A stretch of DNA of 64,000 nt. It comes from a virus (taxonomy: Duplodnaviria; Caudoviricetes). The position numbers were made by a program, and so were the translations under genes. The notes below the pieces were generated by a model. That model ran no database searches, was not told where the DNA came from, and saw only the letters and a program-made list of their open reading frames with translations. The DNA lies in the IMG/VR virus record IMGVR_UViG_3300037400_002261, positions 32,001 through 96,000 of that record; one strand, given 5' to 3'. Positions 7,097 through 56,788 of the stretch are shown piece after piece; the stretch's first letter is position 1, and each line of letters opens with the position of its first letter.

Positions 7097-7098
7097 AT

Positions 7099-7171
7099 AG
7101 GGGTGTGGTGTAATGGTTCAGCACAGGTGGCTCTAACCCACTTGATCTGGGTTCGAATCCTAGCACCCCCG
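7099..7171 (+). tRNA. amber suppressor tRNA, anticodon CUA, Gln-type
   Basis: Cloverleaf: acceptor AGGGGTG/CACCCCC (A1:C72 mismatch, G2:C71, G3:C70, G73), D arm GTGT/GCAC, anticodon stem GGTGG/CCACT with loop CT-CTA-AC (CTA at 7133-7135), T arm CTGGG-TTCGAAT-CCTAG. Confidence 0.95.
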
Positions 7172-7179
7172 TTATTTAT

Positions 7180-29742: not shown

Positions 29743-29756
29743 GGAGGGAAATGGTA

Positions 29757-31179: not shown

Positions 31180-31180
31180 T

Positions 31181-31753
31181 ATGGCATATACGAGTTTTTA
31201 TTAGTTGATACAAGATATTAAACGTGATATTGGTAAAATTGGAAATAAGATAGCAAGGGGTGTTGCAGAAATTGCTCATGAAGATATGTGTGAGGCACAC
31301 TCTTCTATTATTGAAAGTTATTATGGTGGCTATACTCCAGTTAGTAGTTATACTTACTATTATTATTCTCCAAGTGGAAAATTTTATTCTGGTCGTTCTC
31401 ATGGATATAGACGAACTGGAAATTTGAAAAATAGTATTATTCCACAGGGTGTAACAGGTAGTGGTCATTCTTTTACTGCACGAATACAAGTTGGTCCAAT
31501 GTAGATGGATGGATATATTAATTCTACTGGGAGAGTTTTTCCAGCTGAAGGTGTTTTTGATTTGATTTGGGATCAAGGAATTCGTGGTTTACCAGAAGGT
31601 TATAGAGGGCATATAGGTAATGTAAGTATATCTGCTGCGCCAGTTGGAATTGGAATATCTGGAAAACCAGATGAAGCTATGAATGAATTTATGGATAATT
31701 GGTGGGCATAGCGTGGACAACAAATGGCTGATATGATTGCAGGAAGTGTATGA
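31181..31753 (+). CDS. HK97 gp10-like tail component; TAG=Gln
   Basis: YRRTGNLKNSI motif; 190 aa across 3 TAGs. Confidence 0.7.
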
Positions 31754-31754
31754 T

Positions 31755-31785
31755 GGGAAGTGCAATATTGTACTTCCTATTTTTT
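31755..31785 (+). terminator. terminator-like hairpin before the tape measure gene
   Basis: GGGAAGTGCAA/TTGTACTTCCT followed by ATTTTTT. Confidence 0.65.
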
Positions 31786-31814: not shown

Positions 31815-34800
31815 ATGGCCGATATTAAAGAATATATTATAAAAATAACGGCGAATGTTGATGATGCCAAATAGAAGTTAGATAGTTTGGCAAATTCTAT
31901 GTCAAAAGTAAATCTTAATAATGGACTTGATTTAGATTTAAAAAAGTCTACAAGCGAAATTACTGGTTCTATAGGAAAAGTTGCTGAAGAAGTAGGAAAA
32001 TTATAGAAAGCATTTGATAAACTAAATGCTGATAAAATTACTAGTGAAGTAAAAGATCTTTCAAATGATTTAAAAAGTTCTATTGATTCAATGAAATCTT
32101 CATTCGAGGGTTTTCAAAAAACATTTGAAGGTTTAAGTGGTGCTGGAGATAAAGGTTTTGGTCAGATATTTAAAGATTTTTCTGAACAAATGAAAGAAAT
32201 GATAGATTCGTATAGAGAAGCTATTAGGGTTATTGATGGACTTAATAATGGAACTATTGCACCCAATCTTTAGGAAAAGGTAGAAGATGCTGTATAGAAA
32301 AATAATAATAGAACGAAGCAAAATGTGTAGAAATAGACCAATGCAATAACAGAAGCATTAAGAGAAAGTAGAACAAAAATAAATAATGCTATTAAAGATT
32401 TTAATGATAATATTGATAGTATAACAGTTGCCCAAATTGGTTCATTTACTGATGAAAATGGTAAGCAAAAATTTGTTCCTGAAGAAGAATTAAGAAGAAT
32501 GGAATTATATGTTTCCAATTTAATTGGAATAATTAAAAAAACAAAACATATCAAAGGTGTTGATCTTAATAAATTAATTTTTTCAAAAATTGGGATGTCT
32601 GAAGATAGCTTAAACGATATTAGAGATGACATACAGAGTAAAATCACCGCTTCTATTGAAAGACGGGAAACAAAAGCTGAATCTATAATCAAAGAACAAA
32701 ATGCAAAAGATAAAGGTGTTAAATAGCCAGTATCAGTCAATATTGATGTTGTTTTAGATGAGGCTTCTATATCAAATGATTCAATAGATGCTATGGTTAA
32801 TAGAATTCGTGAAGAAGTAGTATTTAGAGTTAATGAAAGAATCAAGAATCATCCAATAAAAATACCTATTAGCTTATCAACAGAAGAAGAAATAGTTAAT
32901 GACGAAAAATTAACTGATAAACAACTTGAAAAAAAGACTGAAGAAAAATAGAACAAAAAGTTTGTTAAACAATTAACTGTTGAGGTTAGAGCTATTACTG
33001 ATGGAATGCTCGATGATATTAACACAAAAATAAAAGAACTTAATAAAAAAATAACTTAGACAATTGATATTAAACTTCGACCAGTTTTATTTAGTGAATA
33101 GGAATTGGAAGATGTTGTGTTGCAAACAGAAGAAGATATTAGTGGTATTATTGACGGAAAACATGGTAAACGTGGTATACCAACTGATGCATCAAAATTA
33201 ATATTATCTTCAAATACTTTTGATGAACAATCTCATGCTGTATTAGTTGATATTAGAGATATCGTAGGTAGAATTCTTGCTGCAATAAGTGGAAACATTC
33301 CACCATCTGGTGGTCATCCGATGTCACCGACATCAAATATTCCTCCTACTCCACCTACTCCTCCTACTCCACCATCTGGTGGCGGTGGTACACCTCCAGT
33401 ATCTCAACAGAAACCAATTAAAACTGTAACTATTAATAAACCAAATGTTGTGATGTAGAATTCTGGAAATGTTAATACTGGTAGAACAATTGGTGTTACA
33501 CCAAATTAGACACCATAGCAAGAAATTCCAAAAGGTGGTTCATCTTCTACTCCTACTCCAGTAACGGTTGTAGATAATGAGCCAAAGTAGAAAAAACCAT
33601 TTTCGTTTGAAAAATATGCAAGATATTTAACAATTGGTAGATTATTAAATAAAGAAAGGGCTGGAGAATTAACTCAAAATGAAATTGAATATGCAAAAAG
33701 TTATGGAAGGGAATTATTACAAAGAGCCGCAAATGCATTAGTATCTGATATAAAAGGGAAATCTATAGGCAATGAAAAAAATATAGTTGTTGGAGCTGCC
33801 AAAAGAAATTATGATAGATTTACTATTGCAAGAAATAATTTAATCGAAAGAGAAAATAAAAGAGAAGATTTATCAAATAAATTATCATCGATTGGTTATT
33901 CTCCAAAACCTGTGATTAAAAGTTCTTCAGTAAAAGCGTTGGATTTTATTTTATCGAAACTCAATAATATAAAAAAAACGACAGAACCATTATCTGAATC
34001 TTATAGAACTGGATTAAGTGATAGAAATTATTTTACTCAAACTGTTGGTGATAGTAATTTAGCATTTTGGGGAAGAGCAAATCAAAATATTGAGGATTTT
34101 CAAAATGAAGTATTTGATGTCTTTGTAAAAGGAAAAGATTCAATAGCAAAAATGAATACTAGAATTAATAAGCAATTTGAACGTGAAATGAATGCTACTT
34201 ATCTTGTAAATTCTGGCATTGGCGGCGAAAAGGTTACACCATAGATAAAACGTCTTATTGATTATGATATTATAAATGAAGGTAGAGATCTTAAAGGGCA
34301 AAGATTAGCACAAAGACTTGCTGAAGAACATGAAACCCCAACAAGAATATCTGAAATGCGGGCAAATTTTATTAGAAAAAGAATGAGCGAATTATAGATG
34401 ACACCATAGCAATTGGATGCCTTGAAAAAAGAAAAAGAAGAATTGTCAGCTATATATATGCCTGCTATTCTTGGTTCTAATGATGAAAAGTCTCCATTAA
34501 GTATGGAACTTTTAGCAATTGAGCAACGCTTAAAATATCTTAATGATACAATTGATAAAGTTGAAAATGACGCTGAAATAGTACGTTATAGAGGAAGTTC
34601 TGATGAAGATATAGTTAAAGAACAAATTCGTAGAGAACATATGGCTAGGAGAGTTTCATTAGTAAGGCAAACTTCTCCGTTAACAGATGATCAAAAAGGT
34701 GAACTTGATAAATATAGAAAAGAATTAATTGAAAAAGAAGCTGAAAAGATTGCTATGTCTGTTGTAAAAGAAGGTTTTGGAAATAATATTTTCAAAACGT

Positions 34801-37800
34801 TTAATTATGGAACTGCAAAGTCTGATGTTAAAAAAGGCGGTAATAATAGTGATCAAAAGCGTATAAGAAAACTTGAAAGTTATGGTCTTGAAGTTGATGA
34901 AAAAACTGGAAGATTAATTTCATTTAAAACACCAGAAATTGCGAAAAAATGGGGTGTTGATGATTTAGAAGAAAGGCTTCTTGAAGTTGGTTCATATGGT
35001 GAGGAATAGTTAAAAAAACAACGTGATATTACTGAAGTGCTTTCTGAAAATGAAGAAGATTATAGGAAGTATATAGCTGCTTATGATCGTCATAGGGCTG
35101 GAGAAGCAACCAAAGAAGATGAAGAAACTATTAAAATCTTAAAAGGTAAATTAGCCGAACACGCATTATATTTTGATAATCAAGAAAGAATAGATTAGAT
35201 TATTTCAGAAAATATGGAATTAGAAAAAAGATTGAACAAAAAAGGAGCTACTAAAAAAGATAGAGATAAGTACAATCAAAATAATTTAGAACTTAAATAG
35301 ATTGCTCGAATTACTCCAGATAGGTTCTCAGAATTTGATGTATATCAAATGGCTCAACGACAAATTGGTAGAATTGATCATTCAAGAGATTTAGAAAAAG
35401 ATATTATGGAAACTTATAGGAATGCTATGATATCAATGGTTAGTGGTGATACTATAAGAAAGATGAGTAAAAGCACATATAAAAAACATTTATTAGCCAT
35501 TTCTGAATCTGGCAAAGAAATAGGAAAATTAAGTAGTACATTACCAACTGTAATGGGTTCAAGAGATAGAAAAGGTATTTTTGTTTAGAGATTCGATACT
35601 GGATTGCCAGATTGGAGTTATTAGACAGATATTGAAAAAGAATAGCGTTCAAAAGCTTATAACAGATTGCAATATGCAAAGCGACATGCATTGGGATATG
35701 AAATAGGTAATGGTATTCGTGATATTAGTGGTAGATTAGTAAATAAAACAGAAATCCCAGTTGAAAATATGAAAGTCGCAAATCTTGGATTATCTCCTAA
35801 AACTGCTAGAGCATATGCTTCTTTACCAGCAATTCAAGATATCTCTGCTCCATATAAAGATGAACATGGAAGACCTATTTATGGGAAGAATGGCGAGACA
35901 TTGTACAAACCAACGAATACAACCCCTGAATAGCTTAGAATGTTTTCTGATGTCCTTGGCAATGTTATTTCTGAATTAAATACTACTATTGCTTCTCTTC
36001 CAACTGACGAAGCTGAAATTGCTAAATTAGCTGAAGATAGACTTAGTAAAGCTACTGTAGTTCCATGGTTAGAACGTATTGAGTTATTAGATAAAGAAAT
36101 CGATGAAAGGGAAGAATATAATAAAAAACTTGAAAGTGGAGAAATTCAGGGACAAAAACGTGCTACATATAGTCTTAAAAAAGAAAGAGATGCATTACAA
36201 AGATCAGTTGAACAATTAGAAGGAGGTGCTTATAGTTCTAAGTATAAAAAAGATAAAAAAACTGGCGAATGGGTTTTAACTGGTGGTGAAAAATTAATAC
36301 AAGATAGAGAAGAACTTGCTAAATCTATATAGGATGAGTAGAAATTAATAACAGCTGTTTAGAAAGCAACTGGTATAAATGATGAAGCAGTTAGATTAAT
36401 AGAAACCATAAAATGGGCCAGAGAAGAAAAACGAAAACTTGGATTACATACTATAAGTAAAGGTGAAGATAGTTAGTATGCTATTGCAAAATAGGATTAT
36501 GACACAAAGAAAGGAATTTATGATAGAGCATAGACTACTATTAGAAATGGTGGAAGTGTTCCTGATATAAAAAATATTGAAGCGGAATATAAATAGGCAG
36601 AGGCTGCATATCAAAAGATATTAGGTGTTAGATTAATTGAAGCATGGGTGGAAAAAAATCTTGGTGGCAAAATATCAGAATTTACACCAGATAGTAATTA
36701 TGCTGTTAGTACATTAGATGATGCTAATGCGTTATATGAGCAGTACGATGATATTATAAGAGAATCTACAGAAGCGTTAAGAAAAATAATATCTAAAAAA
36801 TCAATCAATGATTTATTATAGGATCTTGATGTTCTAACTGCTGACAAATATGGAGAAAAAATTAAAGCGAATCCTATTAGTGATATGCTTGAAGAATTAA
36901 GGGAAATAAGAGAAAGACAAGAAGTTCTCCGTGGAGAAATAAGAGAACAGGAATATCAAATGTCAAGAACTGGAGAAGAATTACAGCCCATTAAAGAAGC
37001 TCGTCTTAAAAAGATTAGAGAAGATATTAAGAAGAAACGCACAGATGCAATTTCTATAAGAGATACTAATGTAAGATCAAAACAAATTATTGATAGTATG
37101 ATAAATGTATCTGATGTTATTGCTGCTGATGAGTAGATAAGAGCACAAGAAAAGGCTAATATAGAAGAAAAACAAAAAGAAATTGATAGTATAATGGCAA
37201 AATCTACTGATGATAGAATTGCTGATATAACTGAAAGTTTTGCTAATCAAACTTCTGAAATATAGACATAGTTATCTGAAGAAAACAAATTGTTAATTGA
37301 ACAACGGAATGCAATTGTTAATGAATATGTCGAAAGTACAAGAGAATTAAAACAAAGAAGAACTGCATTTAATCAAGCTGATTTGGAATTAGAAGAAGCA
37401 GTTGATGAAAGAGATAAATTATTATCTGTAAAATCTAGAGAGGAAATATTAAGTGAAGATTCTGAATATCAAAGAATTCAGAATGACATTAGTCAACTTG
37501 AAGAAGAAATTGCTAAATCTCCTGCTTCTGAAAGAAAAAAATTAAGATTAGAAAAATTAGGACCTTTAAAAGAACAACTTCAACAAAGAATTGAAGATAT
37601 TAGATATGGTTATATTGACCCAATACAAGAATCCTTTGATGAGTTAAAAGATGCATTCGAAGTAAAGGGTATAAGAGGTGAAGAGCTTAGAAGAAAAGCA
37701 ATTGCTTTTAAACAATTAGAGGGAGAAGGAAGAAATATTGGTGCAAGAGTTGATTGGTATGAAGAAGATACGATAAATGGTGCTTCTCCAATAGATTTTG

Positions 37801-40800
37801 CTGATTCTGTTATTAATGAGGAAGTAAATGCAAAACAAGAAGTTGTTGATCTTGCAAAAGAAGAATTGGAAATTGCTGCTCAAAGATAGGAAATCGCAAG
37901 AAAAGCTTTAACTATTGCTTCAACAAGCACACCAGAACGTACTGAAATTGAAGCTGATTATAATGCTGCTACTAATAGGTATATTTCTTCAAAAACAAGA
38001 TATGAATCAGTTGAAGAAAAATATTTAAAAGCTAAGAATAATTATGATAATGCATTAGAAAAGATTGCAAAAGGTGAAAACGTTGCAAAATTTGATAAAA
38101 TAAAAATGGAATTTGAAAAAATATCTCCTGAGTATGACAGAGTTAAAGCACTTTATGAATCTTCTAAAGAAGCATATTTTAGATTTGGTGGATTATTAGA
38201 TGCTATTAATGGGTCAAATATTGTACCAGAAATTGATGAAGCTGCTTCTCAATTTATGAGAACTCAGAGTTCGATTGAAAATCTTGAAAATGCATAGCAT
38301 AGATTAATTGAAACTAGAAAAAGAGAAATAGAATTAGCAAAAAACGATAATAAATATATGGAATATTTGTATAATCAAGCTGGTATTCCAGTACCTAAAG
38401 GAGCAAGAGTATATGATGAAAAAACAAAAGAAGCAATAAGAAGAAGAGATGCTGAAGAAAGAGAAAGAAAAAAAAGACAAGCTAAAGAACAAGAATAGAT
38501 TGATACAGCAGCAATTAGTAGATGGCGTTTTGGACTTGGTGGTGTTGAAGAAGAAAAAATGAATGCAAGAAGAAAAGCTAGAGCTAATATAAAAGCTTCA
38601 TCAACATAGAATAAGCCGAGAGAAATGTTCGATTGGCGTTTTGCAGATATGAACAAAGATCAAGCCGTTATTGCAAAATTAATTCAACGATTTGCTGTAA
38701 AAAAATATAGGACTGAAAGATAGGATAGATATTTAAAATCTCTTCAAATTCAGGCATAGAACATTGGCTTGAAAATTAATGCAAAAGGATATGTAGAGCC
38801 ACTCGTTTCTAAAGAAGAATATGAAGCTAATACAGAAGCTCATCCTATTCCTAAATTTACTTAGCAAGAACTTATACAACGTGGGTTATTAACGGCAAGT
38901 AACAAATATAATTCGCAAAGCAGTTAGCAATCACAGCAATCTGGAAATCAACCTGATAATGTTTTTGAACCTGAAAAGAAACGTCAACAAGCACCAATGG
39001 AAGGTGTAGTTGATTATGGAACGGAAGAAGAATATTATCGTCAGATGGGAATGCAAGTACAAGATATTGAAAGTGAAGTAGATAATATTGGTGAAAATAT
39101 CAATGCAAACACAAGAAAAGGAAATACTCAACAAGGAAATGATTTTATAAGTTATGCTACTGGTAAATTAAATAAATTGAATCTTGGAGCACATAAGAAT
39201 GAAGCTGTAGCATTATGGAATTCATTAAAGCCTACAATATCAAGTCGTGAAACTGCTGATACAGTTATTGCTACTATTACTTCAAAACTCAAGGAATGGA
39301 GTTCAAAAGATAATCAATCACAAAAAGAAACTTCTGCTTAGAAAAGACAAGAAAATGATTTTGTAAATCAGGCTGCTATAAAATTAAATAAATTATAGCT
39401 TGGTGGGTTTAAAGAACAAGCTGTTGCGCTTTGGAATTCTTTAAAACCGTCTATTATAGATCAGGAATCTGCGGATAATGTTGTTGCTGTTATTTCAAAT
39501 CAATTAAAAGAATTTAATGAAAAAAATGGCCCACAAGGGTTTGTTGAATATGCTAAAGGTAAATTAAATAAATTAGATTTAGGTAATTATAAGGAACAAG
39601 CTGTTGGTATATGGAATTCTTTAAAACCATCTATTATAGACTAGCAGTCAGCAGATAATGTGATATCAGCTATTACTTCTAAATTGTAGGAATGGAAATC
39701 GAATGATGAAAAAGCACCTCAAGCCACTCCTGGATCTGGTCAAGCAAGCGATTCTTTGGAAAATGTTGCAACAGAAGGTCAAGCCGCTGCTTCTGCTGAA
39801 TCTCAAGTAGCAGAAAATGGATAGGCTGCTGCATAGGCATTGGAAAATATTGCATCTATGGGTGATCGTTTTAAATCTTTAAAAGATCAATAGGTTGAAA
39901 ATGAAGTTCTTACAATGGAAGAAACGCCAAATAACAATAGTGTAGATCAATAGTCAGACACTATTGAAAATCAAATTAAATTATATGATAACCTTGGTAG
40001 AAAAATTGATGATAATAAAGCCAAAGTGTTATAGGGAACGAAAGCTATAGATGCATAGAATCAAGGCATTCTTACATTATTCCATTCGTCAGATGATGTT
40101 TTTGATAAATTTGATCCATAGAAAATGGGTGTATCTGGTGCTAAGTTTGGTAAAGGTGCATATTTTAGTACAACTCCCCAAAAAATATATGGCAATAAAA
40201 TGACAGAATGGTATGCATATGTAAATAAAATATTTGACATAATGTATACTTAGCTGAATAATGAAGAAATCGAAAATATAATTTCAACTTGGTATAAAAA
40301 TTTTTCAGAAGAAATAATTGCAAATGCAAGAAAAGCTTTATCAACAAGGGATTATAAATCATTATATAGCGATGAATTACCCAAAAGAGATAATGAAGTG
40401 TTATTACGAGATAAGAAAATTAAATATATAGCTGGTTCGCCATTTTATGATGATTAGGATTTTATTGACAAAGCAATTAAAGGTCTTGGATATGATGCTC
40501 TTCAAGTACCAGGTGGAGGTATTGTTGTTTTTAATTTAGACAATATTATTCGTGCAAACAATTTAGTACATGATACAATTGATGAATTATAGTAGTTAGT
40601 AGAAAATCGTCCTATTAATAGTAAAAGTGGCATGTATATGATTCCTGCAACGATTGATGTAAATGATTTATCAAATGAAAGTCCGATTTCATCGGGTACT
40701 GTGCCACAAAATGTTGGTTCTATTACAGATAGTTTACACGATATGTAGATGGCTGGAAGTAGTGCTACAGAATCTATTGTTTCAGGTATGTCTGATATTA

Positions 40801-43800
40801 GTGATAATTCTGAACAAGCTATTACATCAGTTAAACGTGTAGTAGAAGCATTTAGAGGAGTAAATGAAGCTAGTGATTCTAATGGGTATTGGTCATCTGA
40901 TTACGATGAGGCAAAATGGTATGCAGAATATGGCGAAAATGTTAAAGAATTATATAAAGGTAAAATCAAATTTGATAAAGCTTACTATACAGATAATTTA
41001 GGTAGAGATAATAATAATGTGAGATATTTAGGTGCTGGTTTTGATGATATATCCAAATAGTTAATAGAATAGGATAGAATATAGAAAGAAGCACATGATA
41101 TAATACAATCTGCATTTTAGAAACATGGTATTGATATTGATTTTGGTACATTTACTAGTGGTTTATCTGGAGATCTTGAAGATAGTTTAAGAAGTGTTGA
41201 AGATTTATTCTAGGGTTAGTTAGACACTATATTAAATGAATGTAAAGAATAGATTAAAATATTTAATGAAGCTGGTTTAAAAATATAGCAATTATTCACT
41301 GAAAGTAATGGGCGATATTTTCAAGGATAGACAGATGATGTTAGTAAGGCAATTTTAGAATCTGGGTTATTTGACGGGGAAATATTTGATAGAATATAGG
41401 ATACTACAAATGGACTTACAACTCATTATAGACCAATTGATGAAAGTCAAATTTTTGATAAGATTTTGTTAGAATCAAATCAAAATCCTGTTTTATCGGA
41501 TGATATTGTAACATTGTATCGTGGAGTAGGTGCAAAAGGTACAAATGGTGCGAAGTCATTGTATCATGATGAAGCGGGGACATTCTTTACTGATAATTTT
41601 GAAGCCGCATTATAGTATGCAGAAGAACTTGAAAATGATATTTATAAGCTGTAGATATCAAGGTCAAAATTAAATGAGATGCTGAATGTTGATGCTTTAG
41701 GATCTTAGTATACAGATATATCATTAGATGGTGTAATATAGACAACCGATGAAATTGCAGAAAAAACAAAAGCGGATGGATAGAAATTAGGCGTTGTATT
41801 CTCTAATGTTAGAGATGGAATAGAGTCAGCTATAACAAGCGTTTCTATCTTTTCAGAGGAGTTGTTGGACTCCGCTCAAAAAATGTCTGATACAGAAATA
41901 TTATATTAGCTTGAAAAAATAGATCCAGAGTTAGCTAAATAGTATCGAGATGAAGGTGGTATCTCCGATAAAACTCCAGTTTCAACTACTACTCTTCCAC
42001 TCCAAGAACAAGACGAAAAACAACAAGAAATTGGTTCTTCTGCTGAATAGTCAGCTTCTTAGGTTCAAGCTGCCGAATCAAAAAAACAATCTGCAATTGA
42101 ACAAACAACAGAAAAGTTAAAAGAACAATCTTAGGTTGAAAGCCAAGTAGTAAAAAATGCTAATCGTCCAGAAAAATATCGTGAATATGATTTAAGTACT
42201 CTTCCAGAGAAAGACTTATATAAGCATTTAGGGTATTCTCGTACTGCATTACGTTCAAACAGATCTAAAGAAAAAGATGCACAATGGAGATATTATAAGA
42301 GTGAGTTAGAGCAAGAATTAACACGTAGAGAATTACCATTAGAAAGAGGTAAATCAAAACCAGAATATTCAGATAGAGATATATCATTAGAAGCAGATAG
42401 TGTTGTTCGATTAGCTGCATCTGAAAGTAATTTAAGTGATCAAACACAAATTGCTAATCAAGAATTATCAAGGTAGGGAGAATTACTTGCAGAAAATTCA
42501 TCAATACAACAACAATAGCCAGAGCAAGATCAAAGTCATATTGTTGAAGGTTTATAGTAGAAAACAAAAGCATAGAGAGAATATAATGATGCGATAGCCG
42601 CATAGCCATCTGCTCCAGATAACGAATATGGTCCAGAAGCAGCTGCTATTGCAAAAGAAGTTGAAAAAAGCAAGTATAAAAGTTAGTCTTAGAGGGCAAT
42701 TCCTGTTATAAATCCAGAAGAAATAGCAATGCCTATGTCTTCTCCTGTTGTTAGTGGAATAGCTGCCCAAGAATCTTCAACAGAATAGATTGCTCAAAAT
42801 ATGTCTGAAGCTACTGCTAGTGCTAGTAGTCTTGCTGGTGCATTAGGCGATGTTGCGCAAAAATCAAGTGAAGTAGCCAATAATACTGCATAGGCAAAAG
42901 ATAATATTGCATTGACAGATGCTCAGAAATCTTCCGCAGAAAATGCAACTTAGTTTACAGGTGAAGAACAAGGTTCATTTAGTAGTTTAGCGAGTGAAAT
43001 TAGAACAGATGTTATTGCAGCTATTGAAGAAAAGAATAGAGCATTATAGGAAGAAGCAAATCTTGTTGCAAAATTAACATCGGGCGAAGGAAATGATTTT
43101 ACTACTCTTGCTAGTAAAATAAAGGAAATAGCTGAATAGGCTGAGAGAATAAAGATTGAATTTGATTTTAGCAATATTGATAAACTTGATAAAAACTTTA
43201 TTTAGCAATTTAAAGAACTTGCTAAAATTATTAGTGAAGTCGATCCTAGTAAATTTATTGCTGTTGGTGAAGCGTTTAAAGGACTTAATATTGATAAAAG
43301 TCTTGGTGATAGTTTTGCTTCTCTTGCTGATGGTATTACCGCTTTTAATGAAAAAGTTTCTGATGAGGGAATTGGTGGTAATAATTTTAATGATTTAATG
43401 AATTTAATTAATCGTATTTCTGATGCTGGCAAACATATTTCTGACATGGCAGAAGTTTTAAAGGCAAGCGGAAAAGCTGGTCGTGGCGTATTTGGAATGA
43501 AATATTCCAAAGATTTCGATACAGAAGAATAGATGCGTGAATATATGGATTTAATGAAATATCTTTCTAATCCAAGCAATATGGTTAAATCATAGAAATT
43601 AACACTTCAAGGATTAGAAGGTGGTAGCATTTAGGCTAAAGATATGATATGGGCGCAGGATTATTTGCAAAAATTAGATCAAGCAAGAGAACTTCATAGA
43701 ATATTAGAAGAAAATAATCAATTAGAAGAATCTGGAAGAAAAGCACTTGATAGAACGTGGGAAAATTTTGGTATCAATCAAGCGTCTTCTTTGGATGCTG

Positions 43801-46800
43801 CCAGAAGAGAGATTAATGATGCAATAGATGAAACGTTAAATAATTACAATAAGCTTGCGAAAAATAATCCAGTATTAGTAGAAGAATTTTCAAAAGGTTA
43901 TGACCAATTAGGTGAAGCTATAAAATCAGCAAATGCCGAACTTAGAAATGATGCAGATATAAAAAAATATAAATAGAATATTAGAAGCGCATATGATGAA
44001 TTTAATAAATTTAGCAAAATGAATCGTGTAGCTTTTGGAAAAGATTAGAGCATGAAGATTTTAGATACTGAGGGGCAGAGTTTCAACTCTGATAGTGCGA
44101 AAGAATTTATATCTAACTATGTAAAAGATAATTATAAAAAAGTATTAAAAGATGTAACACAATCCACCAAGGTTGTAGATGGTGATGAGATGTCTGTATT
44201 TACTGCGCAAGTACAAGATGCTAATGGGGTTGTTCAGACATTAAAATTCTCATGGTCTGAAGTAACAGAATAGATTCGTATGTCTGCTAATGAAGTAGAT
44301 TAGAGCAAAACTGGTATTGGTGGTATTATTGATTCTATTACTGGAAAAGTAAAACAACTTTCAACATATTGGACTGCTCAGTTATTTAATCCATATAGAC
44401 TTATTGGATATGTAAAACAAATAATGAACGTGGTAAAAGAATATGATACAGCAATGATGGAAATTAGAAAAGTATCAACAGAATCTGCTAAGTCTTTAGA
44501 TAACCTTAGATTAGATAGTTTTTCGATGGGAGAACAAGTCGGTTCTACTGGGAAAGATATACTTAGCAGTGTTGCTGCTTGGAAACGTCTCGGTAAAACA
44601 TTTGAAGAAGCACAAGAAGCTGCGGTAGCATCCAACTGGTTATTAAATGTTTCTGAATTTACTAATATAGATGATGCTACAAAATCTCTTGTATCAATGA
44701 CATAGGCTTTTGATGATTTAAGTTATGAAAGTGCTATTGATAAATTAAATGGTGTTGGTGATGCATTTAGTTCATCAACAGACCAAATTGCTTCTGGTAT
44801 GTAGAATGTTGCTTCTGTATTACAAGTTGCTGGAAATGATGTAGATCAAAGTATTGCATTATTAGCGGCGGCTAATGACGTTACATAGGATATGAGTAAA
44901 GCATCTATGGGTGTTCGTACAGTTGCTCTTCGAATGGCTGGTACACAAGAAGCAAAATAGCAATTGGAAGAATTGGGTGAAGATACTAGTGATTTTATTG
45001 TTCAAACTCAATCAAAAGTTGATGCTCAAGTAAGAAAATATACTGCTACTGCTGCTAATCCAAATGGTATTAGTGTACTTGAAGATAATGGAAGATTAAG
45101 AGATACTTATTCAGTATTGCTTGATATAGCAAAAGTTTGGGATTAGATTGTAGAAAAAGATAATAAGTCTGGAACAAATACATCAAATGCTTTACTTGAA
45201 TTGCTTGCAGGTAAAACTCGTTCTAATGTCCTTGCTTCTATTCTTCAAGCTCCAGATATTTTAGAGAGTGCATATGAAACTTCAAAAAATTCAGCTGGTA
45301 TTGGATAGAAAGAGCTTGACATTTATCTTGATTCTGTCGAAGCAAAGTCAAAACAATTAACTAATAATTTTCATGAATTGGCAAATATTACAATTAATTC
45401 AGATGGTCTTAAAACAATGCTCGATATAATTAACTCTATTCTTTCGGCTGTTAATTCTCTTGCAAAATCATTTGGAGCGTTAAAAACTGTAATTGGTGGA
45501 ATTGCTAGTTTTGCTTTATAGAAAAACGGTTTAGGTATTTTAAATTATGATATAAAAAAGGGTGCAGCAATAAATGGTTAGAGTTTCGTTAGTACTTTTA
45601 TAAAATCAATTAAAACTGGTTTTGTTAAAGATGAAACAAGTTATTTATTTAAAGACATTTTAAAACCAGATTAGGGATTTGAGGATCAAATTAGGACAAT
45701 ATGGGGAGGAAGTATAGATTCATTTACTAAATCATTTAGTGATGCTAATTTTGCCAATTTTATTAATAATTATGATAAAGCGAAATTAGCTACAATGTCA
45801 GCGCAACAAGTATAGACTGAATATAATGCTGCACTTACGGCAACAGGCAATACATTAGGCAAAGTTGGGACAAATCTTGTATCATTTGTAGGAAACATGT
45901 TAACTGTAATGGCTGTTGTAAAAGGTATTGAATTATTATTTAAAGGTATTTATACAATAGCTACATGGGATGAGAATTTAATCAAAAAAGGACAAGAAGC
46001 AAAGAAAAATATTGACGATATAAATAAATCATATACAGAAGCTAACAAATTAGTGGAAGATTTTGATGAAAAAGAGTATCGTAAGCTACAATCAAAAAAA
46101 GATAATGAAACTATTTCAACAGAAGAATATGAAAGATTGGCATCTATCAATAATCGACTTGCTGAAACGTTTCCGTCTCTAGTATCTGGTTTTGATGAAC
46201 AAGGTAATGCAATTATTAACATGGGGGATAAAGCTGGTGACGCTTCAAACAAATTAAACGAACTATTAGAACAAGAAAGAGAACTTGCTAATTTCCAAGT
46301 ATCTTAGAATTTAAAAGATGTTGCTGCTGGAGTGAAAACTAGATCAAAATAGATAGCTAATGATATTATAAAATAGAATAATGTAATAGATTCATTAGGT
46401 CCAATATCTGAATAGATTGGGAATATAAAAGATGAATTATCTGGCAGTCTTAGTGCATTCAATGTTCAACTTGGAAGTAATGCTGATGATTTATTAAAAT
46501 ATGATATGAGTACAGCAGCCATGTTATATCAAACAGCTTTAAACGATGCTGGAATTTTTACAAAGACACCAATAATTGAACCAGAAGTTGGGAAATATTA
46601 TATAGAACCAGTTCTTGATGATGTAACAAATGAGTAGATCGAAGATGCACAAGGAAGATTTCTTAATATGCTAGAAAAAGCTAATTTGGATAGTACAATA
46701 TCTGAAAAATATTTGGATGCATTAAAAATTAAGGCGATAGATGAAAAAGAATTAAAAGCAGAATGGAATTCAATTGTTCCATCAATTATATCATCTATGG

Positions 46801-49800
46801 AACTTTATGATGAATTCGATAATATTGGCGAAGATTTTCAGAAGGTTATTAGAGATGGTATAGCTAAATTAGATATTACTAGTCTTTCAACTGATAGACA
46901 AAATGAATTTGCGAGTGATCCAAGAGCGTTTATAAGAAAAATGTTTTTAGATCCTATTTCTGATGGTATGTTGAATTCTAAAGGTACTATAAAATAGGAA
47001 AAACTAAAACTTTTTAATTAGCTTTTATCTTTTGATGGTAATGATTTAAAAAATAGTGATTATACTAATCAAATAAATCAAATTATATCTCAAATTACAG
47101 ATATTCCAAATAAATAGGCTGAAATTCGTATTGCATTAGGATTTACATATGAAGATAAATAGGGGAACGAGATTTGGAATGTAGACGATGCTAGAGAAAA
47201 ATTATTTGAAAATATTGGTGGTTCGATTGATTATGTAGATGGCATCAAAAGAATTAATAATACTATTGGAGGTATTTCATTTGAAGATTTTTCAACATTA
47301 GGTCAATCTGATTTTGAAGCCATTGATTATGCTTTAAAAAATATGAAAATACCTGATGATATTGAACTTTCGTGGGAAAAGCTCCTTAATATTATATAGA
47401 AAGCAAAAGAGGAAATGAAAAATTCTCCGAAGGTTGAAAAAGATGGAAGCCTTGCATCACTTTTTAATGATGATAAATACCAATCAGATAGTGAAAAGTA
47501 TGAAAAATCTCTTTCTTCACTTACTTCTGCCCTTGAAACATTACGTACAGAGGGTGAATTAAGTAAAGATGCTACCAAAGAATTAATAGAGCAATTTCCA
47601 GAGTTGGCTTCAAAAATAGATGATACTGGAAGAATTACAGAAGATTTATTGAGTAATGCTATGGCAGATGAACTTGCTAATTGGGTTAAATTAATAAAAG
47701 ATGCAATGAAAGAAGCATCACCAGAAGAGTAGAAAGGTATGCAAAAATATATAGATACATTAATAGCAAGTTATGGAGAATTGGGAATATCTGCTGAAAA
47801 AGCAAAAGAACAAGTATACAAATCGCTTGTAGATACTGATGCTTTAGGTGGCACAACTAATTAGATGGCATAGGTACAAGATATAATATCTGCGCTTGAA
47901 GGAAAATATAGAAAAGATTTAAATTGGGAAATTGTATGGACACTTGCAGTAAATGATATGTTATCTCCAGATCTTGAATCTACATTTAATGCATATGATG
48001 GTTTAGAACTTGAATGGAATATAAATATTAATGAAAGAAAGTTATAGGATATTCAAAGAAAATTAGGTTTAGGTCAAGCAACCAAAGGTCGAATATAGGC
48101 TGATTAGTCAAAAAAAGATGCATCTGGTCATATTCTTACTGAATAGGATTATGCTACTCTTGGAAGGAATCTAGCATAGGAAGTTAAATATAATAAGGAT
48201 GCAGAAAAAATTGCATTTGATGAATTTACTGAAGCTGAAAGAAAAGCTAATGAAAATCCTTTACTCAATGAAAACCTAGTTAATTATCAAAATAAGATGA
48301 AAGCATATGAAGAATCAAGAACAGCTACTGCTAATGCTGAAACAGAAGAACTTCAAAACACTGTAAAACAATATCAGTCTGAATCTGAAATATTACAAAA
48401 CGCATATCAGAATTTACAAAATGAATCTAAAGAACTTGATAATGAAATAACTGAACGTACTAATCTTGGTCTTGAAGCGACTGCTAATCAAATTCAAAAC
48501 AGAATCCAAGGTTCGCAAGCGCAAATTGAATCTCTTGATGCTCAAATTCTCGCAAAGCAAGAAGAAGCTAATAAATTTGCAAGTGATACCAGATTTGGAA
48601 CTGATAGTCAGTTTTATAAAGATGCTGTTTCTGCCCAAGATGATCTTCGTAGTCAACAAATAGAACTTGAAAATAAAATTCTTGATGACAATCTTCTTCT
48701 TAATGGTGGAATGAGAATTAATGAACTTTCAGCCGAACTTACTGATTTACAATCGGTTGCAACAGATGTTCAAGATGCAATGTCGTTTAGAGAGGCTCGT
48801 GGAATAAAACCAACTGTAAAAGATTATCAGAAACTTACTAAGAATAGTAAAGATTAGATTAAGAATATTAAAGAACAAAATGATAAATTAAAAGACCAAC
48901 AAAGATATCTTGTTGATAATTATGGAGAAGTTGCTAGAACATCTTAGAGATATCGTGATATTCAATCACAAATTGATAGTAACAATGCTTCTCTCCGTTC
49001 TCTCGCATAGAGTCAATTCGAATGGGGAAATCAAATGGCACTTGGTTCTATTTAGAATATTATGGATTCTTTCAGTGCTGCACAGTCTGCTATGGGTAAA
49101 GGTCATTTAGATGATACTTCTACATTATTGAGTCTTATTGATGCAAATCGTAATTATGCAGAAGCATTAATGACAACTACAACTGGCACATATGTTGATG
49201 CATAGGCTATGGCTGAATTAGCGCAAGAACAAGGTGAGCTTACTATCTCGATGATTGATGCCGAAAAAGCCGCTGAAGCTATGAACTATCAAAAGAATGA
49301 AAGTGAAATTTTATCACTTGCTAAATCTATTGATCCAACTATCAATTCTATTGAAGACCTTAATAGAGAAATTGCACAAAATCCAGATTCACCACAATGG
49401 TCTGAGATACTCAACCTTCAAGATGCTAATAAAGATATTCAAAGTACAATTGATAATCTCCAAGCAATGAAAGAGCAAATGCTTGCTACTACTTCTGCTC
49501 TTGGAAGATATCAAATGGCACAATCTACAGCAAATATGTCAGACCCAATGCAGACTATTCGTAATGGAATGGAAAATGCTTAGAAACTTTATGATTAGGG
49601 TTGGTGGGGAATGGATGATTTCACTACCTATGCTGATTTATTGGCAACTAATGAATAGCTTGCTAATGGTACTGCTGTTGATTTCTTTGAAGAGAATAAG
49701 AAAGCGAGAAGTAAATATCTTACAGAAGATCGAAAAGGTGTTGATAAATGGGTCGATGATATGATCGCTAAATCAGAAGAACTTGGAACTAGCTGGGCAA

Positions 49801-52800
49801 AATTGACTGATAAAGGATACAAATTTGACATAGATAGTATGGAAGAGTTTGCTGATGCTATGGGTACTTCGACTGAGTTTGCTGAATATATGCTTATGGC
49901 GATGAAGGATGCTGCTTATGATGTTGATATATCTCGTATTGGTGATCGTTATGCAGAAACATTTGATAAAATTGTTGGAACAGAAGCTAATGCTGGATAG
50001 CAAATTTCGAATTTATTAAATGATATGGAAGCTACTGCTTCTGCTGGTGGAGATATTACTCAAGCTGCTGAATCTGCTGGATAGGCTATTTAGAGGATGC
50101 ATGATGCAGGAGCAAGTGATGCTACAATTAATAAACTTGTTGAAACATATAATGAACTTGGTGAATTGAATGGTTTCCGTATTGACCCGAAAACATTAGA
50201 GATTACCACTAATGTGGATAAATCTGAATTAGAAGTAACTGAAAAAGAAGCTGAGAAACCTATTGATAAATGGATTAAGATTAAAACTAAATATGATATT
50301 TCCGAAGAAGATATCACAAACACAAATAATGCAATTCAAAGGGCATTTTAGGGAAATAAAGCAAATGCTGAATAGTATTTAAAAGATTCTGGTATAAGTG
50401 ATAATACTGCTGCTGAGTTATTTGAGATTGATTTTGAAGATGGGGAATATAAAATTGAAACAGCTGATGCAGAAGCAGCTATTGAAAATCTTGCAGTTAA
50501 AATTGGATTAATAAATGATAAATCTGAAATTACAAATGAGACTGCCCAAGCACTTATTGCTACTCTTGCTGAACTTGGTCTTATTGATATTGAAACAGAT
50601 GTTGATATAAATGATATTAAAGAAGCTGAAGAAAATATTGATAATCTTCACAAGAAGTCTGAGAAACCAGTTAAAATTAAAACTGAAATAGAAAGTGAAT
50701 AGAATCGTGATACAAGTGCTTATTATTCTTCTATTGAACCATTATCTCGCAGAGTTCAATCTGAGCATCAATAGAATTTAGATACGAGTGCTCACTATAC
50801 TATGCCAGAAGCTGGTGAATTAGAACAACATCGTAGAATTGTTTATCAAATTCAAACAGAACTTGCAGACGGTGGAACTACGATTAATAAACTTGAGAAT
50901 TTAACTGACCAAGAAATTGTGGAACGTTTTAATGTCGAAGGTGCTGAAGAAATTCAAATGGTTCGTGATACTATATCTGAAATATCATCATCTGAGGGTT
51001 ATGATCTTGTTGTGAAAATAGATCAAGAATAGCTTGATTCTATAACAGAAGCATTAAACCCAACTGAACAAGAACCAATTATTCCAGAAGTTGATAATAC
51101 TCAAGCACTTGATGCTATAGAAGAAGTGTCTGAAAAAGTAGAAGAACTTGCTTAGAGAATGTCTGAGTTGAAACTTACAGTAGATAATGGTAATGGTATA
51201 GAAGAAGGTGGGTCTGCATCAATAGAATTAGAAACACCAGATAAAACAACATCATCTGGTTCATCGACTTAGGAATAGGTTGTAACTCCTACTGCTATTA
51301 ACTATGCTGATAATATGGTTATTAGTGCTCAAGCCGTAGTAGATAATGTTGATACTTCACAATATGATGGTATACAACTTGATGATAAAGAAGCACAAGT
51401 AAATGTAAAAGCTGATACATCTGAAGCTGAAGGTGAAATTAATACGTTTACAAGTAATCCATTTACTGCAATTGTTAATTTTATCACTGGTAAAAAAGCC
51501 GATACTCCCGAAGAATCATCACAAAGTTCAGAAACAATTACTATGAATTATGAACCTGGTTCAACTGGTGAAGTTGAAGGTGCAATAGATAACGTTAAGG
51601 GTTATGCAGAAAGTAATCCAGCAGAAATACCAATAAATGGAAATAATGATGATGCAAAAGCAAGTGCTGATGAAGCTGAATCATATGCTAGTGGCAAAAC
51701 TCCGCAAATGAGAATTACTGGTAATGCTTCGGCTGCATTAGGTTCAGCTGATGCTGCTGTAAGTGTAATTAATGCTAAAACAGCACAAATTAAAGTATCT
51801 GCTGATACATCTACGCTTGTGAATAGTGTTAGTAATGCTCTTTCTAATAGGACATTTACTGCTAATGTAGTAGCAAATATAACTGGTACGCTGATGAATG
51901 TTGCTGTTTAGAAACCAAGTGCTTCTGCTCCAGTTAAAGGTGATTCTGGAGCAAAAGATGCGCCATTTTATACTGGTACTCTCCTCTCTCATGCTCGTGC
52001 AACTGGTACATTAAAAGATTTTGATGATTATATTATTGGTGGTAAAGCACACGCAAATGGTGATGTTACTATTCCTCAAGATGAAGATTCATTAGTAAAT
52101 GAACTCGGTACAGAATCAATTATAAGGGATGGTATTTGGAGATTAATTCCAGGTGGAATGCATGTAGAACATTTGAAAAAGGGAGATATTGTTCTGAACC
52201 ATTTGTAGACTCGTGATCTTATTGAAGACGGGAAAGCATTTGGTAATGGTAAACTTATAGGTAATGCATTTGCTAAAGGTACTGCATTTAATGGAATGCC
52301 AGCACATGCTACTAAACGAGACTCAGAAGCTCATAGCAATGGCGATAGTTCAAGAGTAAATCCTGCTCGTCAACATGTTGGAACTTTACCTCAATCTACT
52401 GGTACTGGAAATCTTGGTAAAACAATAGGAGATGCTGGCAATCAAGCACAGGGTGCTGGTCAAGATATTAAAGACGCAGCTGAAAACACTGAAACCGCTC
52501 TTGATAGATTCAAGAAATGGGCAGACTCACTCTTCGACTGGATTGAAGTCCGTATGGAACGTCTGCAACATTCTATTGATAAGTCAACAGCATAGGCTGA
52601 ACTTGCAAGAACATTCTAGAAGAAGAATTCACATATTGAAGACGCAATGACAGTTCTTCAAGGTCGCAATACTAAAGCTGAACAGAAACAAGTCACGAAA
52701 GAAATAAAAGAAGAAAAAGCTGCTGCAAAGAAAGCGGGAGCAAATCTTAAAAAGACCACTTATGGTAATATAGATATGAATAATCGCCAGACGATTACTT

Positions 52801-55800: not shown

Positions 55801-56747
55801 GAGAAACAGACAGATGGCGTAATGCCGCTAATCCAGATAATGGCGGTGGAACTAAAAGTGCTAGCGGTGGAGGTACTAAAGGCGGTTCTACTGGAGGTGG
55901 TACTAAAGCTAGTGCTAATGCTGGTGGTGGTGCTAAAAAGGATACTAAAGATACTAAGAATGCTGGAGGTGCTAAACCTGCTGCAACTGGTGGTGGTGAT
56001 AAAAAAGATACGGAAGTTAAAACTGTTGCGAGTAATACAAAATCCGTTGATGCTGTTATTAAATCTTTATCTAGTAGAAGCAAAACATTAACAGAAGCAG
56101 AAAAGAAAGCACATTCTGGTTTATGGGAATATGTCGCAAAGAATTATGGAAAATCAATCACTGGTAAAGGAATTATTGAATTAGCTGATGCGCTTGGTGT
56201 ATATGTTTCTGCTACTTCTAGAAAAGCAAATAAACCTACTAGTGTAGAAAAGATTACAGTATTAGATGCTTTAAAACGTTATGATAAGACTACATTAAAG
56301 ACTGGTATTTCATCTGCGATTGGCATTGGTTTAAAGACTGGTGTTTCATCTGCTATTAATAAGAAAGGTTATGCAAAAGGAACTCTTGGTACTAAGCAAG
56401 ATGAACTTAACTGGACTCATGATGGTGAAATCATCCGCATGGCAGATGGGGCAATTCTCAGACAGTTACCGCAAGGTACGCAAGTAATACCAAGACTTGA
56501 AAGTCAGAACCTTATGAAGTGGGCATAGATGGACCCGAATAAGTGGACACATGAAGGAATTAATTTGGAAGTAGTTAAGTCAACTCCGAATCAGGAAATT
56601 AATCCTGTGCTTAACTATTCTCCGACTATAAACGGAACTGGATTAAACGAACAACAAGTATTAGATCTTCTTAAGAAAGATCGTGAAGATGCATTCAGAG
56701 ACTTTACTAATCGTATTAGAAAAGACCTTAGAATGTCAGGTAGGTAA
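31815..56747 (+). CDS. giant tape measure protein (8,310 aa) with N-terminal extension and three ART-like domains; TAG=Gln
   Basis: GGGAGG RBS. All major + strand track fragments share one frame. Manual translation of the gaps found only TAG (about 164), never TAA/TGA. TP901-type TMP core at ~44400-45400 (EYDTAMMEIRKV, IDKLNGVG, GVRTVALR, AGKTRSN). C-terminal motifs AHANG...LVNELGTE and GYAKGT. Followed by Dit. Confidence 0.92.
39138..39694 (+). repeat. three imperfect ~55-aa tandem repeats inside the TMP
   Basis: KLNKL.LG..K..AV..WNSLKP.I.....AD.V...I...L.E occurs three times. Confidence 0.9.
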
Positions 56748-56755: not shown

Positions 56756-56788
56756 TAGGGTGGGAGATATACTCTCCCATCCTATTTT
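56756..56788 (+). terminator. terminator-like hairpin
   Basis: TAGGGTGGGAGA/TCTCCCATCCTA followed by TTTT. Confidence 0.7.

What the first reader, a model, noticed from the sequence alone, without database searches (positions are those of the whole stretch)
31815..56747. One 24.9-kb gene: an 8,310-aa tape measure protein hidden by recoding
Seen in sequence: a continuous frame from ATG 31815 to TAA 56747. The recognisable TMP core begins only at about 44,400, leaving an N-terminal extension of about 4,200 aa (coiled coils, a Pro-rich linker at ~33300, repeats, enzyme-like domains). Established knowledge: tail length scales at about 0.15 nm per TMP residue. Inference: either the tail is about 1.2 micrometres long, or the N-terminal half is non-ruler cargo, possibly cleaved and ejected with the DNA. 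This is far longer than typical TMPs.
Basis: partly seen in the sequence, partly recalled or inferred. Interest (0 to 1): 0.85.

Follow-up and report, generated by a model that had tools for sequence, protein, structure and literature searches.

The report
Giant 8,310-residue recoded tape measure gene
This uncultured phage reads the stop codon TAG as glutamine and encodes its tail-length "ruler" as one 8,310-residue protein, the largest tape measure gene in this window's family apart from a 9,353-residue version in a sister strain; if all of it acts as ruler, the tail would be about 1.2 micrometres, longer than any measured so far.

Summary
Window 31815-56747 (+) is one frame of 8,310 codons with no TAA or TGA and 164 evenly spread TAG codons. 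The phage carries a tRNA with anticodon CUA, and TAG positions align mostly with Gln. The gene has a strong ribosome-binding site, terminator-like hairpins on both sides, and no internal start or terminator signals. It sits where a siphovirus tape measure gene belongs. The Pfam tape measure domain PF10145 lies at residues 4237-4448.

Misassembly is excluded. Independent assemblies of near-identical phages carry 8,323- and 9,353-residue products at the same place. Fifty-seven more distant metagenomic relatives of 4,570-7,587 residues share the layout, so this gene is extreme but neither unique nor the longest.

The closest cultured relatives are SPbeta-like and Lactococcus 949-group phages. In phiL47 a 3,275-residue protein goes with a 480 nm tail. 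The closest characterised giant is Thermus phage P23-45 gp96 (5,002 residues, about 800 nm tail, N-terminal enzyme kept in the full-length virion protein).

Whether the 4,200-residue N-terminal extension is ruler or cargo stays open. I lean towards ruler, giving a tail of about 1.2 micrometres.

This scan has already reported giant TAG-recoded tape measure genes of 4,245-7,473 residues on other DNA. Verdict: an extreme new member of a known kind.

The parts
7098..7172 (+). Suppressor tRNA with anticodon CUA, which reads TAG. It lies at the border between the TAG-free early genes and the TAG-rich late genes.
   Evidence: ARAGORN. ORFs at 1-7021 have no in-frame TAG, while late ORFs have 1-164.
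22329..23105 (+). Tail tube protein (SPbeta YomU-like), 258 aa.
   Evidence: The 258-aa gene at the same place in L010, which is 97.7% nt identical over window 20293-39892, carries PF27173 YomU_Tube. It also matches phrog_2729, virion structural protein.
30293..31753 (+). Three small genes (171, 124 and 198 aa) in the position of tail assembly chaperones. The last two overlap by 23 nt in different frames.
   Evidence: ORF list; same gene order in L010. No family hits, and a programmed frameshift was not shown.
31752..31781 (+). Terminator-like hairpin with T-run just upstream of the gene, followed by the RBS GGGAGG 7 nt before the ATG at 31815.
31815..56747 (+). Tape measure gene: 8,310 codons plus TAA, with 164 in-frame TAG read as Gln.
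31815..33059 (+). Conserved N-terminal domain (aa 1-415), predicted helical. It is shared with the N-termini of P0002, P0003, P0008, P0011, P0012, P0021, P0028 and P0053.
   Evidence: Only 22 hits among 1.84 billion representatives, mostly fragments cut at TAG.
33063..33608 (+). Pro/Gly/Ser/Thr-rich linker (aa 417-598) predicted to lack regular structure.
33609..39080 (+). Long, mostly helix-prone, non-repetitive stretch of the N-terminal extension (aa 599-2422).
   Evidence: Low-confidence AF2 model of aa 1-1200 is almost all helix; helix-propensity profile; no family hits.
39081..39770 (+). Three tandem ~70-aa repeats (aa 2423-2652).
   Evidence: Self-BLAST, 42-54% identity.
40062..41894 (+). 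Non-helical island (aa ~2750-3360) that another first-stage note reads as three ADP-ribosyltransferase-like domains. The sister strain L010 diverges just upstream, at nt 39892.
   Evidence: Propensity profile; PARP hit at E 0.1, below threshold; weak similarity inside the N-extensions of P0013 and P0015; divergence point.
42813..44414 (+). Pre-core region (aa 3667-4200), conserved and collinear with P0002 and other relatives.
44415..48458 (+). Recognisable tape measure core: phrog_4211 at aa 4201-5548, with PF10145 at aa 4237-4448 (nt 44523-45158).
   Evidence: 78-79% identical to P0003, P0008 and P0009 in the core.
45864..45941 (+). The only strongly hydrophobic, membrane-span-like segment (aa 4684-4709).
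   Evidence: Kyte-Doolittle scan.
52074..52256 (+). Conserved small beta domain ('motif 1', aa 6754-6814). It is flanked by Gly-rich linkers and followed by a long helix.
   Evidence: AF2 with a 19-sequence alignment, local pLDDT 74-83. Present in most family members.
56355..56594 (+). C-terminal motif (aa 8181-8260) related in sequence to motif 1. It is conserved at the C-termini of relatives.
56756..56784 (+). Terminator-like hairpin 9 nt after the TAA stop.
56809..57651 (+). Distal tail protein-like gene (PF20195 DUF6558, phage tail protein N-terminal domain), TAG-free.
57644..61936 (+). Tail-tip / fibre protein of 1,430 aa with a C-terminal Peptidase_S74 chaperone domain; 24 TAG.

Best explanation
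Window 31815-56747 is one gene of a TAG-to-glutamine recoded, SPbeta-like siphovirus. It is translated late, once the phage's own tRNA-CUA is available, into a single 8,310-residue tail tape measure protein.

Inferred mechanism: as in other siphoviruses, the C-terminal end anchors in the tail-tip complex (Dit and Tal are encoded next). The chaperones encoded upstream coat the chain, and the tube protein polymerises around it until the N-terminus is reached. The whole chain, including the mostly helical 4,200-residue N-terminal extension, would then set the tail length. That gives about 1.2 micrometres at the 0.147-0.16 nm per residue seen in phiL47 and P23-45.

The extension is modular. It has a conserved N-terminal domain, a variable spacer, and a globular island that may be an enzyme delivered into the host when the protein is ejected ahead of the DNA.

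Sub-probabilities: one gene and one primary product, about 0.9. It is the tape measure, about 0.95. The whole length acts as ruler (tail over 1 micrometre), about 0.55.
For: Shown:
- A single open frame exists only under TAG=Q. It has 0 TAA/TGA in 8,310 codons against 295-1,149 in the other frames, and shuffles reach at most 233 codons.
- Codon-position GC is uniform along the gene.
- A tRNA-CUA is present. Early genes are TAG-free and late genes TAG-rich.
- TAG aligns with conserved Gln in the recombinases of the standard-code phages phiL47 and FADO, and Gln is the commonest aligned residue among TMP relatives.
- The RBS is strong, both flanks carry hairpins, only one weak in-frame SD-plus-start occurs, and internal terminator-like sites are no more frequent than in shuffles.
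- PF10145 scores 52.3 bits against a cut-off of 33.2, and phrog_4211 gives E 8e-62.
- Gene order is terminase, portal, capsid-region genes, tube, chaperone-position genes, this gene, Dit-like, Tal-like.
- Independent assemblies give an 8,323-aa product (its first 2,998 aa are open and 96.8% identical over aa 1-2738) and a 9,353-aa product (its last 3,313 aa are open and 81-84% identical).
- 57 relatives of 4,570-7,587 aa share the order N-extension, core, motif 1, C-motif. Several share the same N-terminus.
- An IMG/VR relative has a 5,359-aa ORF that is also open only with TAG=Q.

For the ruler reading (inference):
- phiL47 has a 3,275-aa TMP and a 480 nm tail (PMC3888941), which is 0.147 nm per aa counting the whole protein.
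- The extension has the same helix-prone composition as the rest.
- Its extreme N-terminus is conserved while the spacer length varies, as expected of a terminal docking domain on a spacer.
Against: - No virion, tail measurement or proteome exists for this phage.
- The structure evidence is weak. The single-sequence AF2 model has mean pLDDT 41, and the propensity profile is crude.
- The extension contains a ~600-aa non-helical island and long disordered linkers. These would not contribute 0.15 nm per residue and might not fit a 4 nm lumen if folded.
- N-extension length varies from about 850 to 4,160 aa among relatives. It differs by about 1,000 aa between strains with an identical Dit protein. 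That fits swappable cargo as well as a tail-length polymorphism.
- Reading 164 TAG codons needs near-complete suppression: at 99% per codon only about 19% of chains would finish, so truncated products are likely in some amount.
- Two related 'end' motifs about 1,400 aa apart mean the part beyond motif 1 might lie outside the tube.
Confidence: 0.55

Rival explanations
1. One gene and one primary product, but only the part from the PF10145 core to the C-terminus (about 4,100 aa) measures the tail, giving about 0.6 micrometre. The N-terminal 4,200 aa would be a delivered cargo array, like a polyvalent protein. It would be cleaved off, or lodged at the head-tail junction or in the capsid, and ejected with the DNA to act on the host.
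For: - The extension is the most variable part of the family, at 850-4,160 aa.
- It is mosaic between near-identical strains, with a break right before the globular island.
- It carries a non-helical island with a faint PARP-like signal.
- Other giant recoded tape measure proteins noted by this scan carry nuclease or RNA polymerase modules in the same position (unchecked notes).
- P23-45 shows that TMP N-termini can be enzymes (PMC10770324).
- Multidomain proteins delivered by phages are a known theme (PMC5512222).
Against: - In P23-45 the enzyme stays part of the full-size protein, and the tail length still matches the whole 5,002 aa (PMC10770324, PMC9022992).
- Most of the extension has no detectable domain and looks like helical spacer.
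- No cleavage site or dedicated protease link was shown.
- Siphovirus tails assemble apart from heads, so a large folded N-terminal mass should block the terminator. This last point is inference from the lambda model.
Confidence: 0.3
2. The frame is real, but it is expressed as several proteins. Some TAG codons would still terminate (leaky suppression), or internal starts would be used, so the '8,310-aa protein' would be a minor or absent species.
For: The 164 TAG codons make full-length yield very sensitive to suppression efficiency (arithmetic). Gene callers using the standard code split it into fragments.
Against: - Only one weak SD-plus-start occurs in frame in 8,310 codons, and there are no internal terminators above chance.
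- TAG codons are spread evenly rather than sitting at domain borders.
- All other late genes, including terminase and portal, also need TAG read through.
- Relatives keep the same uninterrupted layout.
Confidence: 0.08
3. Assembly chimera or decaying pseudogene.
For: The contig is a metagenomic assembly of 107 kb without terminal repeats.
Against: - Three other assemblies from different samples carry the same giant frame.
- There are no TAA or TGA codons in 24.9 kb of 31% GC DNA.
- Coding signature is uniform along the gene.
Confidence: 0.02

Closest known systems
Thermus phage P23-45 gp96 (and P74-26) tape measure protein: 5,002 aa, tail about 800 nm or more (PMC10770324, PMC9022992, PMC10034513)
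   Same: It is a giant siphovirus TMP. A long N-terminal part lies ahead of the recognisable TMP features, and that N-terminal module stays in the full-length virion protein. The tail length matches the whole chain.
   Different: - There is no sequence relationship and the host phylum differs.
- The P23-45 N-terminus is a two-barrel RNA polymerase with DFDGD, while this protein has no DxDxD at all.
- This protein is 66% longer and its extension is four times longer.
- This gene needs TAG read as Gln.
TMPs of cultured SPbeta-like and Lactococcus 949-group phages (phiL47 orf166, 3,275 aa; Bacillus phage FADO gp163, 3,080 aa)
   Same: These are the best hits among 50,697 phage records. They share the PF10145 core, the tail-module gene order and a tyrosine recombinase gene in the tail module. 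The YomU-type tube and YomW genes are seen in the sister strain.
   Different: - Identity is only 23-30%, and only over the core.
- Their core starts at about aa 640-660, not 4,200.
- They use the standard code.
- They are 2.5 times shorter.
Uncultured giant PF10145 proteins P0002-P0058 (4,570-7,587 aa) and the strain variants of 8,323 and 9,353 aa
   Same: They share the domain order, and several share the same N-terminal domain. The core is up to 79% identical. The two checked are also TAG-recoded.
   Different: The N-extension differs in length and content. These are sequences only; the papers I could search do not describe them.
phAss-1 / proposed genus Phassvirus, TAG-recoded human gut phages of about 136 kb (PMC10607447)
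   Same: They have TAG read as Gln with suppressor tRNA-CUA genes. The TMP, terminase and portal genes are broken by TAG under the standard code.
   Different: I did not test relatedness to this window. The paper does not discuss TMP size.

Membership tests
Phage tail tape measure protein (PF10145 / TP901-type core) | Match to the family model above the curated threshold | tested here: met
   PF10145 scores 52.3 bits against a cut-off of 33.2, at aa 4237-4448. phrog_4211 gives E 7.6e-62 over aa 4201-5548.
Phage tail tape measure protein (PF10145 / TP901-type core) | Gene lies between the tail chaperone genes and the distal tail / tail-tip genes of a long-tail module | tested here: met
   Three small genes lie upstream. 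DUF6558 (phage tail protein N-terminal domain) and a 1,430-aa fibre/tip protein lie downstream. A tube gene lies further upstream.
Phage tail tape measure protein (PF10145 / TP901-type core) | Mostly alpha-helical chain with hydrophobic segment(s) | tested here: inconclusive
   The AF2 model of aa 1-1200 is nearly all helix but has pLDDT 41. The propensity profile is helix-prone except at aa ~2750-3360. There is one hydrophobic segment at aa 4684-4709.
Phage tail tape measure protein (PF10145 / TP901-type core) | Upstream chaperone pair joined by a programmed frameshift | tested here: inconclusive
   The 124-aa and 198-aa ORFs overlap by 23 nt with the second in the +1 frame, but no slippery site was identified. 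In the sister strain the second gene is called from an ATG after the stop.
Phage tail tape measure protein (PF10145 / TP901-type core) | Tail length proportional to protein length | not testable with these tools
   No virion is available. The scaling comes from phiL47 (and PMC3888941) and P23-45 (PMC10770324).
TAG-to-Gln recoded phages (genetic code 15) | Suppressor tRNA with anticodon CUA encoded by the phage | tested here: met
   tRNA at 7098-7172.
TAG-to-Gln recoded phages (genetic code 15) | In-frame TAG in late/structural genes but not in early genes, and TAG never used as the stop of these genes | tested here: met
   All listed ORFs end in TAA or TGA.
TAG-to-Gln recoded phages (genetic code 15) | TAG positions correspond to Gln in standard-code homologues | tested here: met
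   2 of 4 recombinase TAGs (the two in well-aligned blocks) align with Gln in both phiL47 and FADO. Gln is the top residue (441 of about 1,380 aligned cells) opposite TMP TAGs, although some of those relatives are themselves recoded.
TMP-fused virion RNA polymerase (P23-45 gp96 type) | Metal-binding DxDxD (DFDGD) motif in the N-terminal part | tested here: not met
   No D.D.D anywhere in the 8,310 aa.
ADP-ribosyltransferase domains (ART / PARP clan) inside the extension | Significant match to an ART family model or fold | tested here: inconclusive
   Only PF00644 PARP at E 0.1 and 12.5 bits over 21 residues. There was no PDB sequence hit.

The most novel reading that the evidence does not exclude
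The whole chain is a ruler. This phage lineage would then build tails of about 1.2 micrometres (8,310 aa) to 1.4 micrometres (the 9,353-aa strain), the longest tails of any phage measured so far. [quoted passage not shown] Some of those modules would double as enzymes injected into the host.
Probability: 0.4. Interest if true: 0.7.

Novelty: new member of a known kind. Interest (0 to 1): 0.5.

Why it matters
- The largest tape measure protein studied at the bench has 5,002 residues, in the phages described as having the longest known tails. This gene and its 9,353-residue strain variant exceed it by 66-87%.
- If the ruler rule holds, these virions would be longer than many host cells. That raises questions about how such a tail assembles, stays intact and passes DNA.
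- The gene is also a stress test for stop-codon recoding, since one protein needs 164 consecutive successful TAG readings.
- In practice, standard-code annotation shreds this gene into dozens of fragments. The family is therefore invisible in most databases.
- The variable N-terminal extension is a place to look for new proteins that phages inject.

Tried and rejected
- Domain scans of the whole protein in pieces (Pfam, PHROGs, NCBIfam) found nothing beyond PF10145 and phrog_4211.
- Sequence searches of both halves against the PDB found nothing.
- A two-barrel RNA polymerase like that of P23-45 is rejected, because there is no DxDxD motif.
- A simple tandem-repeat expansion as the source of the length is rejected, because only two small repeat sets exist.
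- Single-sequence scans of viral contigs with the core or the N-terminus found no relative. An alignment-based scan found one.
- Scans of 185,579 prokaryote species genomes found only one 13-kb contig, in a MAG labelled Candidatus Saccharibacteria, at 42% identity. No host can be assigned from that.
- The genome search could not open the Logan records or draw relatives for a virus record. The middle of the 8,323- and 9,353-aa genes was therefore not seen.
I did not send that stretch to any other remote tool.
- The AF2 model of aa 1-1200 is low confidence and was used for secondary structure only.
- A Foldseek PDB search with the model of aa 6641-7000 gave no match better than E 1.8.
- The N-terminal 520 aa searched against 1.84 billion representatives gave only 22 hits, mostly TAG-bounded fragments. 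No free-standing family was found.
- Papers on very long-tailed gut siphoviruses (Hoyles et al. 2014) are not held, so that lead was dropped.
Full report
**Observation.** Under the standard bacterial code the longest ORF between 31000 and 57500 is 406 aa. With TAG read as a sense codon there is a single ORF, 31815-56747 on the + strand. It has 8,310 codons and 164 in-frame TAG.
- The frame contains no TAA or TGA at all. The other five frames of the same stretch contain 295 to 1,149.
- In 200 shuffles the longest TAA/TGA-free run averaged 118 codons and never exceeded 233.
- GC content at the three codon positions stays near 0.45/0.34/0.15 in every tenth of the gene.
- The TAG codons are spread over the whole length.

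This is real coding sequence in one frame from end to end.

**Recoding.**
- The window encodes a tRNA with anticodon CUA at 7098-7172.
- ORFs upstream of it have no in-frame TAG. The terminase, portal, tail and other late ORFs have 1 to 164, and every ORF ends in TAA or TGA.
- In the tyrosine recombinase gene, the two TAG codons that fall in well-aligned blocks sit opposite Gln in both standard-code relatives, phiL47 and FADO.
- Opposite the TMP's TAG codons, Gln is by far the commonest residue in relatives.

TAG=Gln (table 15) is the right reading, as described for phAss-1-like gut phages (PMC10607447).

**One gene or several?**
- The ATG at 31815 has a GGGAGG ribosome-binding site 7 nt upstream. 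It follows a terminator-like hairpin at 31752-31781, and another hairpin lies 9 nt after the stop.
- Inside the 8,310 codons only one weak Shine-Dalgarno-plus-start combination occurs in frame.
- Terminator-like sites are no more frequent than in shuffles, and promoter-like sites are fewer.
- Independent assemblies from other samples carry the same thing. A Logan contig from SRR33718310 is 97.7% identical over window 20293-39892 and has an 8,323-aa product at this position; I checked that its first 2,998 codons are open.
- A contig from ERR12543455 encodes an identical Dit protein and has a 9,353-aa product; its last 3,313 codons are open and 81-84% identical to ours.
- A third contig has a 6,673-aa product.

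Misassembly is therefore excluded. This gene is not the longest of its kind.

**Identity.**
- PF10145 (phage minor tail / TP901-type tape measure core) matches aa 4237-4448 above its curated cut-off. PHROG 4211 (tail length tape measure protein) matches aa 4201-5548 at E 8e-62.
- The gene order is terminase, portal, capsid-region genes, tube protein, three small genes in the chaperone position, this gene, a DUF6558 distal-tail-like protein, and a 1,430-aa fibre/tip protein with a Peptidase_S74 chaperone domain.
- The tube protein is called YomU_Tube in the sister strain, which also has a YomW gene.
- The best hits among 50,697 phage records are TMPs of SPbeta-like Bacillus phages and the Lactococcus 949 group, at 23-30% identity over the core only. 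Those proteins have 3,080-3,275 aa, and their core starts near aa 650.

**Architecture.**
- aa 1-415: a conserved helical N-terminal domain.
- aa 417-598: a Pro/Gly/Ser/Thr-rich linker.
- aa 599-2422: about 1,800 aa of non-repetitive, helix-prone sequence with no family match.
- aa 2423-2652: three ~70-aa repeats.
- aa ~2750-3360: a non-helical island.
- aa 3667-4200: a conserved pre-core region.
- From aa 4201: the core, with the only strongly hydrophobic segment at aa 4684-4709.
- Next: about 2,000 aa of helix-prone sequence.
- aa 6754-6814: a small conserved beta domain (local pLDDT 74-83).
- Next: about 1,400 aa of helix-prone sequence with one 120-aa duplication.
- aa 8181-8260: a C-terminal motif related to the beta domain.

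These rest. The length does not come from tandem repeats.

**Family.**
- A search restricted to proteins of 4,570-14,543 aa returned 57 PF10145 proteins of up to 7,587 aa.
- All have the order variable N-extension (about 850-4,160 aa), core, motif 1, C-motif. Eight share our N-terminal domain.
- The two relatives whose DNA I could read (P0015 and an IMG/VR contig with a 5,359-aa ORF) are also open only with TAG=Gln.
- The N-terminal domain is rare. It gave 22 hits among 1.84 billion representative proteins, most of them short pieces bounded by TAG. I found no free-standing version of it.
- This scan has already reported giant TAG-recoded tape measure genes of 4,245-7,473 aa on other genomes. 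Some carry nuclease or RNA polymerase modules in the extension (those notes are unchecked by me).

**What the N-terminal half does.** Two readings remain.

*(a) Ruler.*
- In phiL47 the whole 3,275-aa protein goes with a 480 nm tail (PMC3888941), which is 0.147 nm per residue.
- In P23-45 the 5,002-aa gp96 goes with a tail of about 800 nm. [quoted passage not shown]
- In both calibrated cases the whole chain counts.
- Our extension has the same helix-prone make-up as the rest. It also has a conserved tip on a spacer of variable length.
- At 0.147-0.16 nm per residue, 8,310 aa gives 1.2-1.3 micrometres and the 9,353-aa variant about 1.4 micrometres.

*(b) Cargo.*
- The extension is the most variable and mosaic part. 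The sister strain diverges at nt 39892, just before the globular island, and the 9,353-aa strain differs by about 1,000 aa upstream of aa 5075.
- It contains an island that another first-stage note reads as three ADP-ribosyltransferase-like domains.
- I could only find a sub-threshold PARP hit and weak similarity inside the extensions of two relatives.
- There is no DxDxD motif, so it is not a P23-45-type RNA polymerase.

I put the ruler reading at about 0.55 and the cargo reading at about 0.3. The two are not exclusive: a module can be both spacer and payload, as in P23-45.

**Caveats.**
- Both AF2 models are of low overall confidence.
- The Foldseek search with the motif-1 model found nothing.
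- The host is unknown. The only hit in prokaryote genomes is a short contig in a MAG.
- One matching scaffold name (STEW19-1) hints at a rumen data set, but I could not verify that.
- Full-length synthesis needs near-perfect suppression at 164 sites.

**Verdict.** The thing is an extreme member, by size, of a populous and apparently undescribed family of giant recoded tape measure proteins. The nearest characterised precedent is P23-45 gp96. It is not a new kind of system.

Noticed in passing
window 24660-25664 and 25679-31753: A TAG-recoded tyrosine recombinase gene sits in the tail module. In phiL47 and FADO the homologous gene lies immediately upstream of the TMP gene. Here about 6 kb of extra genes is inserted between them, including a matrixin-like metalloprotease (PF00413) at 25679-26650.
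   Followed up: partly
window 39892 (aa ~2692 of the TMP); L010 19600-20516: A strain 97.7% identical over 19.6 kb loses similarity abruptly just before the non-helical island. Its replacement sequence ends in a YRGVG-type motif, so alternative modules seem to be swapped at this point.
   Followed up: partly
window 13573-14748: A GIY-YIG plus HNH homing-endonuclease-like gene (phrog_314, phrog_20162) lies between the portal gene and the next structural gene.
   Followed up: no
window 2116-3339 and 3690-4307: Among the TAG-free early genes are a PIN-PhoH fusion protein and a ClpP-like protease.
   Followed up: no
window 1-1122 (whole gene at G000:C1:30399-33122, locus L011): A 907-aa ORF with a single TAG has no Pfam hit, in a phage group where SPbeta carries a single-chain RNA polymerase (YonO). 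Whether this ORF is a YonO relative was not tested beyond Pfam.
   Followed up: partly
L012 (CAZCZD010000021.1, 13,349 bp): The only relative of the TMP core among 185,579 prokaryote species genomes is a short contig in a MAG labelled Candidatus Saccharibacteria, at 42% identity. It is probably a phage contig binned with the MAG.
   Followed up: no
L008 (logan ERR12764894_286), gene ending at locus 9939: A contig with a Dit protein identical to ours has a TMP product of only 6,673 aa, whose C-terminal 2,600 aa are just 52% identical to ours. The tail genes around the TMP gene are exchanged independently of it.
   Followed up: partly
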